A program made the translations under genes and the position numbers. Positions 16,228-35,461 of a stretch of 64,000 nucleotides of DNA are shown here, piece after piece (within the stretch, counting starts at the first letter, position 1; each line of letters starts with the position of its first letter). The notes beneath the pieces were generated by a model that saw only the letters and a program-made list of their open reading frames with translations, was not told the DNA's origin and made no database searches. This DNA comes from Eledone cirrhosa (taxonomy: Eukaryota). Where the stretch lies: assembly GCA_964016885.1 (NCBI GenBank), contig OZ024741.1, positions 224,626,001-224,690,000 of the forward strand, given 5' to 3'.

Positions 16228-16562
16228 TGAAAAAACCCCTTCAGTCATGAATGACCATGTGATTTGCACCTAGAAAGTTTCCCTCCGAGGCACAAGTCTG
16301 TGCAAGGTTGTTTAAGGAAGACCAGTAGTTGCTTATGCATACCAGCCTCCCATCTCCACGCCACCATTGATGGCCAAGGGAAAGGCTATTTCCGATACAG
16401 CTTGGCACCAGTGGTGTCACAACTCATTTCTACAGCTGAGTAAACTGGAGCAACAGGAAATAAAATGTCTTGTTCAAGGACACAACGCATCACCCGGTCC
16501 GAGAATCGAACTCACAACCTTTTGATTGCAAGCCTAATGCTCTAACCACTAAGCCATGCACC
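16228..16562 (-). mobile_element. tRNA-derived SINE, second family
   Basis: A-box TGGCTTAGTGG, B-box GAGTTCGATTCTC, then TTGTGTCCTTGAACAAGACATTTTA (CORE/V-like domain). Confidence 0.75.

Positions 16563-19054: not shown

Positions 19055-19056
<2 letters not shown>
17439..19056 (-). mobile_element. RTE LINE, 5'-truncated copy (subfamily A, like the 1-2740 copy)
   Basis: Uninterrupted ORF 17743-19032, (CAT)n tail at 17439-17461, long (TA)n on both flanks. Confidence 0.95.
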
Positions 19057-19150
<94 letters not shown>

Positions 19151-19275
19151 GGAGGTGAGTTTTATTGTAGTACAATAAAGCAATGCAGATATCGGATAAG
19201 AAGCACTCTACAGTTTGTAGGACTGGAGTATACATAATATATAAGAACAAAAGATGGTTAAAAGAGTTCCATGTA

Positions 19276-19342
19276 TTTTATTATGCGCATTTCAAAAACA
19301 AATATCATCATGCAATAATTTTTGTGCCTTCATCAGATAAAA
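19276..19342 (-). ncRNA. Type I hammerhead ribozyme motif (family A, inverted copy)
   Basis: Reverse complement reads ttttat-CTGATGA-helix II-GAAA-TGCGCA-TA-ataaaa. Confidence 0.82.
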
Positions 19343-19463
19343 CAGGAAGACATGACATGAAGGTTAAAAAACACCTGTGGATAGTGCAGTTCTAAGTTTC
19401 ATATGTTGATTTAGAACTGCACTATCCACAGGTGTTTTTTAACCTTCATGTCATGTCTTCCTG

Positions 19464-19530
19464 TTTTATCTGATGAAGGCACAAATATTATTGCATGATG
19501 ATATTTGTTTTTGAAATGCGCATAATAAAA
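19464..19530 (+). ncRNA. Type I hammerhead ribozyme motif (family A)
   Basis: Helix I ttttat/ataaaa, CTGATGA 19470-19476, helix II acaaatatta/tgatatttgt, GAAA 19513-19516, palindromic ATGCGCAT, UA cleavage doublet. Confidence 0.85.
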
Positions 19531-19593
19531 TACATATGTTGATTTAAAACTGCACTATCCACAAGTGTTTTTAACCTTCATATCATGTCTTCC

Positions 19594-19664
19594 TATTTTA
19601 TCTGATGAAAACACAAATATTATTGCATGATGATATTTGTTTTTGAAATGCGCATAATAAAATA
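19594..19664 (+). ncRNA. Type I hammerhead ribozyme motif (family A, tandem copy)
   Basis: tattttat-CTGATGA(19602)...GAAA(19645)-TGCGCA-TA-ataaaata. Confidence 0.85.
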
Positions 19665-19694
19665 CATGGAACTCTTTTAACCATCTTTTGATCT

Positions 19695-19741
<47 letters not shown>

Positions 19742-19820
19742 CATGTGTGTGTGTGTGTTTATATATATAATTGACAGGAGGCCAGATTGGTGAAATTCCT
19801 TTAAAGTTTTATTTTTGCAG

Positions 19821-26485: not shown

Positions 26486-26577
26486 GTATATATATATATA
26501 TAGTTAAATATTTTTTCTCTAGTTTTAACTATGCATTTATAAATTACGTTTTTGTCTAAGCAATTATTTTGTAAAGG

Positions 26578-26643
<66 letters not shown>

Positions 26644-27033
26644 CAATGCCCTTTACAAAATAATTGCTTAGACAAAAACGTAATTTATAAATGCATAGTT
26701 AAAACTAGAGAAAAAATATTTAACTATATAGGTGCCACTTCTACAAAATTCAAAGAACGCTGGTACAGTCACAAACATACATATAATAAGTCCGATAAAA
26801 AATCTTCCACTTCACTTTCACATCTAATTTGGAATTTAAAGGACAACAATATAGACTATTCAATATCTTGGGAACGATTTCGAAAGCACCTGCATACCGA
26901 AATATGGCTTTCTCAAGAATCTGTCATTTGTGTATCGAGGAATTTTTTTTATATAATTAACTGTCAAAACTCTATTAATTTAAAAACAGAATTATTTTCT
27001 TCTTGCAGACATCGCCAAAATCCCACTTTCTGA
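26644..27033 (+). mobile_element. Penelope-like element, GIY-YIG endonuclease fragment
   Basis: CPLQNNCLDKNVIYKC...YIGATSTKFKERWYSHK...STSLS.LIW.LK....Y.ISW...IN.KTELFSSCRH, the PLE C-terminal GIY-YIG pattern. Frameshifted in the 3' half and 5'-truncated at a (TA)n tract. Confidence 0.85.
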
Positions 27034-27890
27034 AGTATTTTTAATCTATGATATTCTTGACTATATCTTATACACCTTTAAAATGATCCTATTATTTACT
27101 GAGTTTTTCTTTAAAAATTTAAATTTTTAAAAATGATCTTCCTTCTTAAATTTAGTATTTTTACCACTTGATATTCTTTTCCTAATGATACTATTCTAAA
27201 TCTATTTTTTAGATGTAGATTGATAATCTTTAATTGACATTCTGAAAGATATCCTCTTTACGATAGTTCTTCGAAATGCACTCTTGACTTATCTAATAAT
27301 ACATTTTTCCTCTCTTTAATCTTCAAACTTTTCACACATCTTTCAACATAGATAATATATAATTGAAATTCTCATCCTTGAAAAACATATAATATAAAAT
27401 ACCTTATTATTTCATACAAAATAATATATCATCTCTCTACATACTTTCTGAGTAAATCATTCATCAAATTTAATGGTTAGCAAATAAGATTGGAGTTATC
27501 TTTTCCTTTTTTCCTTTACCATTGAGCAAACATAGACATGATAACTTGTATGATAAACTATATAACTTCACTAAATTATTCTGAAAATACTTTCAATGCT
27601 GGAACAAAATATTTGAATCTACAAATTGTTCTCCTCTTACAACTTGAACTACATCTTTTTCTTAAATTTTTTTTATGTAAAATGTAAAATCAACATCCTT
27701 CGTAACTCATAAGAGAAATGTAAACAACTAATAATTGTGGTTTATTTCTATAAAATCACCAATAATACTTATACTTGCACACTTTTTTTATCTATATAGA
27801 TATTTATATACTTACAACCTGTTGTAATGTAATAAGATAAAATGTACTTACAACCATAATATATTCTAATTGATTATATATACAATATTA

Positions 27891-30578: not shown

Positions 30579-30639
30579 TATTTTATCTGATGAGAACGTA
30601 CCAAAGTTTTGGTACCCTTGAAATATATATAATAGAATA
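30579..30639 (+). ncRNA. Type I hammerhead ribozyme motif
   Basis: tattttat-CTGATGA-gaac-gtaccaaa-gt-tttggtac-cctt-GAAA-TATATA-TA-atagaata. Confidence 0.75.
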
Positions 30640-31132
30640 AATATGGTTTTATAAATATAGTTTCCATTTATTTAATATCTTTGAATATTATACTCCAGAA
30701 AACTGTCGAGTGCTTTGAATCAGTTATAAACATTTATATTTGTTGAATTACCAACAAATTAAATATCCCTTTTGCTTATATATATATATATATATATATA
30801 TATGCTTGAAGCCAAATCCTAATTCTATTCTATTATAAGTTGAGCCAACTTATGCAGCTTCATATGCAAATGAGATTAATCACTTCATTTACACAGACGA
30901 GAAAACTATACATTCTCGACTGTTTTCAAGTCTAGCAGTCGTAAGATGAGAGCCAGTCAAGTTCGAAATGCATCGACAACTGTCCCCCTTGCTTCTGTTG
31001 GACTCCACTAGAGGGCGATAGCTCCTCGCCCCCGTGTTTTCGCATAGCTACGGCTCTCTAAATGTTTATCTATAAGCATATCGTGTTTCTTTAGAAATAC
31101 GAAATTCCAATACATACATACATACATATATG

Positions 31133-35157: not shown

Positions 35158-35239
<82 letters not shown>

Positions 35240-35425
35240 ACGAGTAGGACCCGACGGCTGAGCTCAAGCCGTTTCGACGGCTAATTCTTGTCCAGAATTA
35301 GCCGTCGAAACGGCTTGACTTCAGCCGTCGGGGTCCTACTCGTTCCTATTACCCACTCTACTACTCTAAGTATTGAGTACTTTGGTGCGTTATGGTCCAT
35401 CTGGTTCCTTACCACATTTCCTTCG

Positions 35426-35461
<36 letters not shown>

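What the first reader, a model, noticed from the sequence alone, without database searches (positions are those of the whole stretch)
19148..19705. Family A element: one inverted plus two tandem hammerhead units, with a second copy 23 kb away
Seen: (TA)n, a leader GTAGGAGGTGAGTTTTATTG..., an inverted unit (19234-19394), a 14-15 nt loop, two direct units 132 nt apart, then (TA)n. At 42348-42552 the same leader is joined to a single direct unit between TA tracts. There is no credible ORF. Known: tandem minimal hammerheads with a palindromic helix III (here ATGCGCAT) cleave as dimers, and retrozymes release unit-length and circular RNAs. Inference: cleavage at both + copies would release a ~132-nt monomer able to circularise.
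Basis: partly seen in the sequence, partly recalled or inferred. Interest (0 to 1): 0.75.

Follow-up and report, generated by a model that had tools for sequence, protein, structure and literature searches.

The report
Hammerhead-bearing ends of a Penelope-like retrotransposon
This locus is an ordinary compound insertion, one inverted and one direct copy, of the tail end of a very abundant Penelope-like jumping gene whose hammerhead motif is predicted to cut RNA only when two copies pair, and the two-unit tandem that suggested a small RNA circle occurs only once in the whole genome.

Summary
In detail: (TA)n, an 86-nt head, an inverted unit, a 15-nt turn, two direct units 132 nt apart, a tail, (TA)n, plus a 205-nt copy at 42348-42552.

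The retrozyme reading is only partly supported. The units are the last about 170 nt of an autonomous retroelement of about 3.45 kb. It encodes a 799-aa protein with a telomerase-like RT fold and the motif set published for the Hydra clade of Penelope-like elements (PLEs). The "leader" is the reverse complement of that element's 3'-terminal 84-86 nt.

An inverted 5'-truncated copy next to a direct copy, an extension at one end and (TA)n targeting are all published PLE hallmarks.

Genome counts at up to 3 mismatches:
- unit-tail junction: 29,032
- head junction (up to 2 mismatches): 11,728
- leader45-unit junction: 63
- unit-unit tandem junction: 1, this locus

The hammerhead has a complete core, an 8-bp helix I, a long helix II and an 8-nt palindromic helix III, the known dimer-type PLE form. 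Cleavage is untested and no RNA data were usable. It is a new member of a known kind.

Earlier notes on this genome describe other, scrambled hammerheads in PLE repeats; none covers this family.

The parts
19056..19147 (.). (TA)n microsatellite, left flank; the target of insertion
   Evidence: All 30 of 30 other 205-nt copies lie in TA tracts.
19148..19233 (-). Head: the reverse complement of the element's 3'-terminal 84-86 nt extension, i.e. the 3' end of the inverted copy. It contains a terminal hairpin.
   Evidence: In full-length copies the sense strand ends unit-tail-extension (L075, L047). The head junction has 11,728 genome hits. The hairpin carries one compensatory change in a sister family.
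19234..19395 (-). Inverted 5'-truncated copy: tail (19234-19270) and unit positions 132 to 9 (19271-19395). It holds a minus-strand hammerhead at 19274-19344.
   Evidence: It is 99% complementary to 19411-19535.
19396..19410 (.). Turn between the inverted and direct arms. It overlaps the CATATG palindrome at the unit's 5' boundary.
   Evidence: 15 nt between the arms. 8 of 25 inverted arms in other loci end within 8 nt of this boundary. 943 genome sites have a loop-less palindromic turn here.
19397..19535 (+). Direct copy 1, same subfamily as the inverted arm, ending without a tail. Hammerhead parts: helix I 19462-69 / 19525-32, CUGAUGA 19470-76, helix II 19477-19512, GAA 19513-15, helix III 19516-23, A17 19524. 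The predicted cut is after 19524.
19536..19667 (+). Direct unit 2, from another subfamily. Hammerhead at 19594-19664. The predicted cut is after 19656.
   Evidence: The junction 19535/19536 is unique in the genome.
19668..19704 (+). Tail, GGAACTC...CTTATATATTAT. It ends in a TA-rich tract that runs into the (TA)n; the 84-nt extension is absent at this end.
19705..19760 (.). (TA)n / (TG)n, right flank.
42348..42392 (-). Copy 2: the first 45 nt of the head, which are the reverse complement of the last 45 nt of the element. It is joined to the unit through the shared ATAT.
   Evidence: This junction occurs 63 times in the genome, on several subfamily backgrounds.
42391..42552 (+). Copy 2: one unit (42391-42522) and the tail. 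Hammerhead at 42450-42520. The predicted cut is after 42512.

Best explanation
The locus holds 5'-truncated copies of the 3' end of an autonomous Penelope-like retrotransposon of the Hydra type, lying in a (TA)n tract as one inverted and one direct arm, and its hammerhead motif is predicted to cleave only as a dimer.

Shown:
- Full-length copies read 5'UTR, a 799-aa ORF (reverse transcriptase plus a C-terminal GIY-YIG-type nuclease region), a 3'UTR of about 810 nt, the 132-nt unit with the hammerhead, a 37-nt tail, and an 84-86-nt terminal extension.
- Upstream partial copies form pseudo-LTRs.
- The inverted-plus-direct layout, with a constant 3' end and a variable 5' end, recurs thousands of times.

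Inferred:
- The nuclease nicks both strands of (TA)n.
- Reverse transcription is primed on both strands. One arm starts at the RNA's true end and so carries the extension. The other starts at the internal TA-rich tract of the tail.
- The two cDNAs often run off at a discrete RNA 5' end at CATATG, probably the pseudo-LTR transcription start, and anneal through that palindrome.
- At this locus a template switch to a second RNA of another subfamily added one extra unit.
- The hammerhead would cut pseudo-LTR-containing or paired transcripts through an intermolecular helix III. A 132-nt product is possible here only by accident of that extra unit.
For: Architecture:
- L075 shows [3'UTR-unit-tail-extension] followed directly by 5'UTR-ORF-3'UTR-unit-tail-extension.
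- L074 shows head(1-77) + 5'UTR-ORF...unit-tail-(TA)n.
- L047 carries the extension at both ends.

Copy counts in the genome:
- 29,032 unit-tail junctions.
- 17,546 unit 5' regions.
- 6,494 body-unit junctions.
- 11,728 head junctions.
- 63 leader45-unit junctions.
- 1 tandem junction.
- 943 palindromic turns.
- 68,031 first-look candidates for the ORF's C-terminal part, with open frames up to 809 aa.

The protein:
- AlphaFold model with mean pLDDT 73.3.
- The best Foldseek hits are telomerase TERT (E 6.6e-8), then retron, DRT, LINE-1 and group II intron RTs.
- It and its homologues carry RW(K/I), DKT, YRDDGL, CxCX5C, a GIY-YIG-like block without the inner CCHH, CxxC-E and CxH.
- These are the features listed for the Hydra clade, which also has canonical hammerheads and inserts into (TA)n (Craig et al. 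2021, PMC8557442, section 11 read).
- The same paper describes pseudo-LTRs, the adjacent inverted 5'-truncated copy and a one-sided tail (passages).

The hammerhead:
- Among 70 copies the minor-allele fraction is 0.004 in the core and 0.005 in helix III, against 0.039 outside the motif.
- Five other families in the held DNA have the same design, with helix III AUAUAUAU, AUAUGUAU, ACUAGU or AUGAUCAU.
- Pairing across 15 representatives is 88.2% against 73.8 +/- 1.5 in shuffles.
- The dimer fold is favoured.
- PLE hammerheads with a short palindromic helix III that act as dimers are published (PMC4209133 passages; PMC6765202 passages).
Against: - Rfam's hammerhead models do not match, even at E up to 10.
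- Cleavage was not tested. Published PLE hammerheads cleave poorly in vitro even as dimers.
- No RNA run was available.
- Pfam finds neither an RT nor a GIY-YIG domain in the ORF or in 5 homologues. A sequence profile finds nothing in the PDB.
- The GIY-YIG assignment rests on motifs and on Atlas neighbours. No phylogeny was made.
- The element is about 3.45 kb, whereas Hydra families are described as generally under 3 kb.
- The one-sided extension is 84-86 nt, not the 30-40 bp described.
- 29,032 of 29,507 copies that reach the post-cleavage window run through the cleavage site. There is therefore no genomic footprint of cleaved templates.
- The covariation rows were picked by a descriptor that demanded pairing, so one search is partly circular.
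- The twin-priming, transcription-start and template-switch steps are inference from junction sequences only.
Confidence: 0.8

Rival explanations
1. Retrozyme-like element: a non-autonomous tandem repeat whose transcripts self-cleave at successive hammerheads. This would release a 132-nt RNA that is circularised and copied back into DNA.
For: - Two + hammerheads lie 132 nt apart.
- The tandem's predicted fold contains the 8-bp inter-unit helix III and a full three-way junction.
- Animal non-LTR retrozymes are reported to derive from PLE pseudo-LTRs (bioRxiv 10.64898/2026.07.22.740005, abstract and section 14 read).
Against: - The tandem junction is unique in the genome.
- The units belong to different subfamilies.
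- 132 nt is below the 170-400 nt range reported (PMC7229834 passages).
- The would-be circle is not unusually self-paired (z = -0.83).
- The inverted arm would sequester unit 1.
- No back-joint was seen in the contigs laid.
Confidence: 0.06
2. Hairpin-RNA locus: read-through transcription of the inverted and direct arms gives a double-stranded RNA of about 160 bp. This would be processed into small RNAs that silence the PLE family, and the hammerhead plays no part at this locus.
For: - The fold of 19148-19705 is a near-perfect long hairpin (-296.5 kcal/mol).
- Rfam's weak hits here are all long miRNA-precursor-like hairpins.
- At least 943 such loop-less palindromes exist in the genome.
Against: - There are no expression or small-RNA data.
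- The structure is fully explained as an insertion by-product.
- This reading is compatible with the main explanation rather than exclusive of it.
Confidence: 0.1
3. Foldback or MITE-type DNA transposon with terminal inverted repeats and TA target duplication.
For: Inverted arms flanked by TA.
Against: - The arms have a fixed outer (3') end and variable inner ends.
- Many copies are single direct arms.
- The same sequence is the 3' end of an RT-encoding element with pseudo-LTR tandems.
Confidence: 0.02
4. The hammerhead-like motif is an inactive relic with no role in the element's life cycle.
For: - No Rfam match.
- 98% of copies that reach the site run through it.
- Published PLE hammerheads have low activity.
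- Craig et al. note that Naiads thrive without canonical hammerheads.
Against: - The core and helix III are about 8 times less variable than the rest of the unit, despite two CpGs in GCGC.
- The same design is kept in at least five other families with different helix sequences.
Confidence: 0.1

Closest known systems
Hydra clade of C-terminal-endonuclease Penelope-like elements (Craig, Yushenova, Rodriguez, Arkhipova 2021, PMC8557442; section 11 read)
   Same: - A single ORF with the RT followed by a C-terminal GIY-YIG-type nuclease.
- DKT in place of DKG, an RWK-type motif, and a CxCX5C linker.
- No inner CCHH, with CxxC and CxH near the C-terminus.
- A canonical-core hammerhead in the terminal repeat.
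- Insertion into (TA)n.
- Pseudo-LTR tandems, an inverted 5'-truncated copy and a one-sided extension.
   Different: - About 3.45 kb rather than generally under 3 kb.
- The one-sided extension is 84-86 nt rather than 30-40 bp.
- Copy number is in the tens of thousands.
- Clade placement by tree was not done here.
Minimal, dimer-type hammerheads of PLEs (Cervera and de la Pena 2014, PMC4209133, passages read; Lunse, Weinberg, Breaker 2017, seen only as cited in PMC6765202)
   Same: - Type I topology.
- A long helix II with an irregular base.
- A short palindromic helix III that can only form between two copies.
- Location in the PLE terminal repeat.
- Pairs on opposite strands 100-700 bp apart are described.
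   Different: - Helix III is an 8-nt palindrome, giving 8 intermolecular base pairs.
- Helix I is 8 bp, longer than the 4-5 bp of the Schistosoma min-HHRs.
- Helix II is about 15 bp.
Animal non-LTR retrozymes (Cervera and de la Pena 2020, PMC7229834, passages; Li, Clavereau, Pollet 2026 preprint)
   Same: - A type I hammerhead in a short AT-rich non-coding repeat related to PLE pseudo-LTRs.
- Some (the axolotl ones) need dimers to cleave.
   Different: [quoted passage not shown]
- Here there is one dimer in the genome, the unit is 132 nt, and the rest are dispersed single or inverted copies.
Double-hammerhead of newt satellite 2 and avocado sunblotch viroid (Forster et al. 1988; seen only as cited)
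   Same: An unstable helix III is rescued by pairing of two ribozyme copies.
   Different: Those are tandem satellite or viroid RNAs. This one is a retrotransposon terminus.
Twin priming in LINE-1 inversions (Ostertag and Kazazian 2001; recalled, not looked up)
   Same: There are two cDNAs primed on both nicked target strands. They are joined head to head at microhomology, with the 3' ends outward.
   Different: - Here the join is often at a defined palindrome (CATATG or ATAT).
- One arm carries an extra terminal extension.
- The enzyme is a GIY-YIG PLE nuclease, not an APE nuclease.

Membership tests
Hammerhead ribozyme, type I | Conserved core: C3 U4 G5 A6 N7 G8 A9, G12 A13 A14, the A15.1-U16.1 pair and H17 | tested here: met
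   CUGAUGA ... GAA A-UGCGCA-U A is present in all three + copies and in the inverted copy. The core columns are invariant in 15 representatives of 6 families.
Hammerhead ribozyme, type I | Three helices around the core, with helix I open | tested here: met
   - Helix I is 8 bp.
- Helix II is about 15 positions with one C/U mismatch.
- Helix III can form only between two copies.
- The dimer energy is -34.1 against 2 x -12.0 kcal/mol.
- 88.2% of pair cells are standard pairs, against 73.8% in shuffles. The rows were picked by a pairing descriptor.
Hammerhead ribozyme, type I | Match to the curated covariance models (Rfam hammerhead families) | tested here: not met
   There was no hammerhead hit at gathering scores or at E up to 10 on 19100-19760. 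This is expected for a motif without a helix III hairpin.
Hammerhead ribozyme, type I | Site-specific self-cleavage giving 2',3'-cyclic phosphate and 5'-OH ends | not testable with these tools
   This needs in vitro transcription. An indirect look found no excess of element 5' ends at the site (29,032 against 29,507).
Penelope-like elements (structural hallmarks) | Partial tandems forming pseudo-LTRs, an adjacent inverted 5'-truncated copy, and a one-sided terminal extension | tested here: met
   - L075 shows the tandem.
- 25 of 30 head loci carry an inverted arm.
- The extension is present at one end in the window locus and at both ends in L047.
- The definition is from PMC8557442.
Penelope-like elements | A telomerase-like reverse transcriptase | tested here: met
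   The AlphaFold model (pLDDT 73.3) has TERT chains as its best Foldseek hits, E 6.6e-8 to 2e-6. RT motifs FDI..YxSI, YRDDGL and FLDV are conserved. Pfam RVT_1 is not detected.
Penelope-like elements | A GIY-YIG endonuclease domain | tested here: inconclusive
   - The motif block (V/I)IY..x..Y(I/F)G..FK.R..H is conserved.
- Atlas neighbour clusters carry PF01541 in 26-50% of members.
- There is no Pfam hit.
- The fold of this domain was not searched separately.
Hydra clade of PLEs | DKT, RWK, a CxCX5C linker, absence of the inner CCHH, and CxxC and CxH motifs | tested here: met
   One search compared with section 11 of PMC8557442. The window family has RWI where its homologues have RWK.
Hydra clade of PLEs | Insertion into (TA)n and a canonical hammerhead | tested here: met
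   30 of 30 copies lie in TA tracts. The hammerhead is as described in the rows for the type I hammerhead ribozyme.
Hydra clade of PLEs | Placement inside the clade in an RT phylogeny, and length generally under 3 kb | not tested
   No reference PLE set was at hand, and the paper's supplements were not opened. The length here is about 3.45 kb (L074).
Animal non-LTR retrozymes | Tandem arrays (dimers to multimers) of a 170-400-nt repeat, each with a hammerhead | tested here: not met
   There is one tandem junction in 3.0 Gb, and the unit is 132 nt.
Animal non-LTR retrozymes | Expression as linear and circular unit-length RNAs | not testable with these tools
   No RNA run was listed, and the runs laid are contigs of unrecorded kind.

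The most novel reading that the evidence does not exclude
The junction statistics of this family expose how PLEs make their puzzling inverted and tandem insertions.

The proposed mechanism has three parts:
- Both nicked strands of (TA)n prime cDNA.
- The cDNAs run off at a discrete RNA 5' end, 122 nt upstream of the hammerhead site. This is a pseudo-LTR transcription start at an Inr-like TCATATG.
- The two ends anneal through the terminal palindrome.

This would account for 943 loop-less palindromes, for the recurrent 45-nt leader junction at ATAT, and for extra units added by template switching.

The hammerhead almost never cuts the RNAs that are copied: 98% of copies run through the site. 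It would therefore act on something other than the template's 5' end.
Probability: 0.3. Interest if true: 0.55.

Novelty: new member of a known kind. Interest (0 to 1): 0.3.

Why it matters
It removes a candidate small circular RNA. The tandem is a one-off scar, not a replicating family.

It adds a very abundant hammerhead-bearing, Hydra-type PLE, with about 29,000 3' ends. Intact-looking copies, pseudo-LTR tandems and thousands of inverted junctions are all available in one assembly.

That makes the family a convenient natural data set for two open questions named in the PLE literature. One is how the tandem and inverted structures and the microsatellite bias arise. The other is what the dimer-type hammerheads are for.

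Tried and rejected
- **RNA evidence.** The look-up of sequencing runs listed no RNA holder.
- **First read laying.** Contigs of four runs of unrecorded kind were laid on 42348-42552. No unit-to-unit back-joint was listed. This is uninformative on expression.
- **Second read laying.** Laying on 19470-19600 found no listed contig bridging 19535/19536. The contigs stop at the repeat branch points. The tandem junction therefore has no independent confirmation, and this is no evidence against it. Bins unique to this copy had depth 15-19, so these runs look like DNA.
- **Genome DNA search with the head.** It returned nothing because its words are masked as too common. An exact pattern search replaced it.
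- **Protein family searches.** Pfam found nothing in the nuclease part, the whole ORF or five homologues. A profile search of the PDB by sequence found nothing.
- **Literature.** Lunse et al. 2017 is not held.
- **Earlier notes.** A look-up by sequence found nothing for this family.
- **MITE or foldback reading.** I considered it and rejected it; see the rival explanations.
- **Single master for the 205-nt form.** I rejected this because its 28 sampled copies carry 13 haplotypes, several of them shared with the general population.

Full report
**Observation.**
- 19056-19147 is (TA)n.
- 19148-19233 is an 86-nt head. Only its first 45 nt recur, at 100% identity, at 42348-42392.
- 19234-19395 is an inverted tail plus unit, and 19396-19410 is a 15-nt turn.
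- Two direct units start at 19403 and 19536, spaced 132-133 nt and 95-96% identical. A 37-nt tail follows at 19668-19704, then (TA)n.
- The inverted repeats are long. Arms 19271-19395 and 19411-19535 are 125 nt and 99% complementary. Arms 19229-19370 and 19568-19709 are 142 nt and 95% complementary.
- Open frames are 57-70 aa and trivial.
- Rfam gives only a weak tRNA-like hit elsewhere in the window. On 19100-19760 at E up to 10 it gives 43 weak matches, none to a hammerhead family. The best are long miRNA-precursor models that merely see the hairpin.

**The hammerhead.** Read by hand, each unit has these parts:
- helix I: U(G/A)UUUUAU;
- the core CUGAUGA;
- a helix II of about 15 positions with one C/U mismatch;
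- GAA, then the palindrome AUGCGCAU, then A17;
- the other strand of helix I, AUAAAAUA.

Helix III cannot close on itself. Two isolated 78-nt hammerheads are predicted to dimerise: -34.1 kcal/mol against -12.0 for each monomer. The lowest-energy fold of the tandem 19403-19700 already contains the 8-bp inter-unit helix III and a complete three-way junction.

A descriptor for this design found 93 sites in the 321,893 bases I held. It found none in the reversed sequences or in three shuffles. About a dozen of the sites belong to five other families, whose helix III is AUAUAUAU, AUAUGUAU, ACUAGU or AUGAUCAU. One of these lies at window 30579-30639.

Across 15 representatives, 88.2% of pair cells are standard pairs, against 73.8 +/- 1.5 in shuffles. 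11 of 16 pairs change on both sides. These rows were chosen by a descriptor that demanded pairing, so the test is partly circular.

Among 70 copies of the family, the minor-allele fraction is 0.004 in the core and 0.005 in helix III, against 0.039 outside the motif.

**What the family is.** The 205-nt copy has many near-identical relatives: 662 first-look candidates, of which 40 were scored at 92-100% identity. All 30 loci fetched lie in TA tracts.

The head is far more common. Its internal junction occurs 11,728 times at up to 2 mismatches. In 30 such loci the head is followed by an inverted copy whose outer end is constant and whose inner end varies, often followed by a direct copy.

Longer arms run into a body that ends an ORF. 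Full-length copies show the whole element:
- a 5'UTR;
- a 799-aa ORF (P0001);
- a 3'UTR of about 810 nt;
- the 132-nt unit;
- the tail;
- in L075 and L047, a further 84-86 nt that is the exact reverse complement of the head.

In L075 a truncated copy ending in that extension directly precedes a full copy, which is a pseudo-LTR. In L074 an inverted 77-nt piece of the extension abuts the 5'UTR.

**The protein.** Pfam and a PDB sequence profile see nothing in the protein. Three other lines of evidence place it:
- An AlphaFold model (mean pLDDT 73.3) matches telomerase TERT best, then retron, DRT, LINE-1 and group II intron reverse transcriptases.
- The protein and its 13 homologues (33-38% identity) share RW(K/I), DKT, YRDDGL, FLDV, a CxCX5C linker, a GIY-YIG-like block without the inner CCHH, CxxC-E and CxH.
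- Atlas neighbours carry HTH_animal, DUF8422, GIY-YIG and RVT_1.

This is the published description of the Hydra clade of Penelope-like elements. That clade also has canonical hammerheads and inserts almost always into (TA)n (PMC8557442, section 11). The same paper describes pseudo-LTRs, the adjacent inverted 5'-truncated copy and a one-sided "tail".

Two things differ from that description. The element is about 3.45 kb rather than under 3 kb, and the extension is 84-86 nt rather than 30-40 bp. No tree was made.

**Genome counts.** The counts below allow up to 3 mismatches; the controls were 0.

| Feature | Count |
|---|---|
| Unit-tail junction | 29,032 |
| Window just after the predicted cut | 29,507 |
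| Unit 5' region | 17,546 |
| Body-unit junction | 6,494 |
| Leader45-unit junction | 63 |
| Perfect palindromic turn centred on CATATG | 943 sites |
| Unit-unit tandem junction | 1, this locus |

Three things follow.
- The tandem that motivated the retrozyme idea is unique.
- About 98% of copies that reach the cleavage site run through it. Cleaved RNAs were therefore rarely, if ever, the templates.
- Coverage jumps at the unit's 5' boundary. In the sample, 8 of 25 inverted arms end within 8 nt of it, and 4 of 14 direct arms start at -1 or +1.

The window's own turn lies in the same place: the inverted arm ends at unit +9 and the direct arm starts at -6.

**How the locus probably arose (inference).** Both strands of the (TA)n target are nicked, and each primes cDNA.
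- One arm starts at the RNA's true end and so carries the extension.
- The other starts at the TA-rich tract of the tail.

Many cDNAs stop at a discrete RNA 5' end at TCATATG. PLE pseudo-LTRs are reported to hold promoters (PMC6765202). Two such ends can anneal through the palindrome. This gives the 943 loop-less turns. With ATAT it also gives the recurrent leader45 junction, which sits on several subfamily backgrounds (13 haplotypes in 28 copies) and so probably formed repeatedly.

In the window, the inverted arm and unit 1 share all diagnostic bases and differ by one base. Unit 2 and its tail carry the other subfamily's bases. The junction ...ATACAT|ATGTTG... has only 2-3 nt of shared sequence. 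A template switch between two RNAs, or two successive insertions, fits this. Rolling-circle copying of a circle does not.

Double cleavage would give a 132-nt RNA, 19525-19656. Three things make this unlikely to matter:
- It is possible only at this locus.
- It requires that transcription does not include the inverted arm. The whole locus folds into a hairpin of -296.5 kcal/mol that buries unit 1.
- The would-be circle is not unusually structured (circular MFE -13.2 kcal/mol, z = -0.83).

Published PLE hammerheads of this kind cleave weakly, and only as dimers (PMC4209133; PMC6765202). Animal retrozymes are tandem arrays of 170-400 nt (PMC7229834) and are thought to derive from PLE pseudo-LTRs (preprint 10.64898/2026.07.22.740005). 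This locus is at most an accidental first step on that road.

**Limits.**
- No RNA data were available.
- The contigs laid were of unrecorded kind and broke at the repeat branch points.
- Cleavage, the transcription start and the priming model are untested.

**Verdict.** The locus is a new member of a known kind: a Hydra-type PLE with a dimer-type hammerhead. It is of modest interest, mainly for what the junction statistics say about PLE integration.

Noticed in passing
window 30579-30780 (+): This is a sister family's 3' end, running into (TA)n.
- It has a hammerhead with helix III AUAUAUAU and a different helix II.
- A terminal extension follows that shares TATACTCCAG..AAACTGTNGAGTGCTT with this family.
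- It also has a terminal hairpin with one compensatory change: A-U here against G-C there.
   Followed up: partly
window 38811-38870 (+): A classical minimal PLE-type hammerhead, CUGAUGA A GGAC UAGC GUCC GAA ACGU U AAGA. Helix I is 4 bp and helix III is a 4-nt palindrome. It lies about 70 nt before a (CA)n tract, so it probably belongs to another PLE family with a different microsatellite target.
   Followed up: no
window 26506-27042: A remnant of a Hydra-type nuclease region, 43% identical to P0001 residues 665-798 (tblastn E 9e-25).
   Followed up: no
window 42135-42325 and 35234-35429: Another abundant repeat with internal inverted arms abuts the (TA)n tract just left of copy 2. The same repeat flanks TA tracts in many fetched loci. 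(TA)n tracts seem to collect several element families.
   Followed up: partly
window 16499-16556 (-): A partial tRNA-like match: 30.5 bits against a gathering score of 29, covering model positions 8-63 only. It is possibly a tRNA-derived repeat.
   Followed up: no
L076 2136-2903 (-) and L075 6953-7945 (-): Next to full-length copies lie two other open frames. One is a different PLE-type ORF end with a canonical GIY-YIG and CCHH block (VVYSIRC...IVYIGET). The other is a 331-aa open frame with a P-loop helicase look (GTGKTF).
   Followed up: no
loci L031, L035, L036, L044: Four of 25 inverted arms end at unit -269 to -279. This is a second cluster of 5' ends besides the CATATG boundary.
   Followed up: no
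alignment A3, columns 19 and 48: The fourth position of helix II is a conserved mismatch (C against U or C) in families A, B and C, while the neighbouring pairs covary.
   Followed up: no
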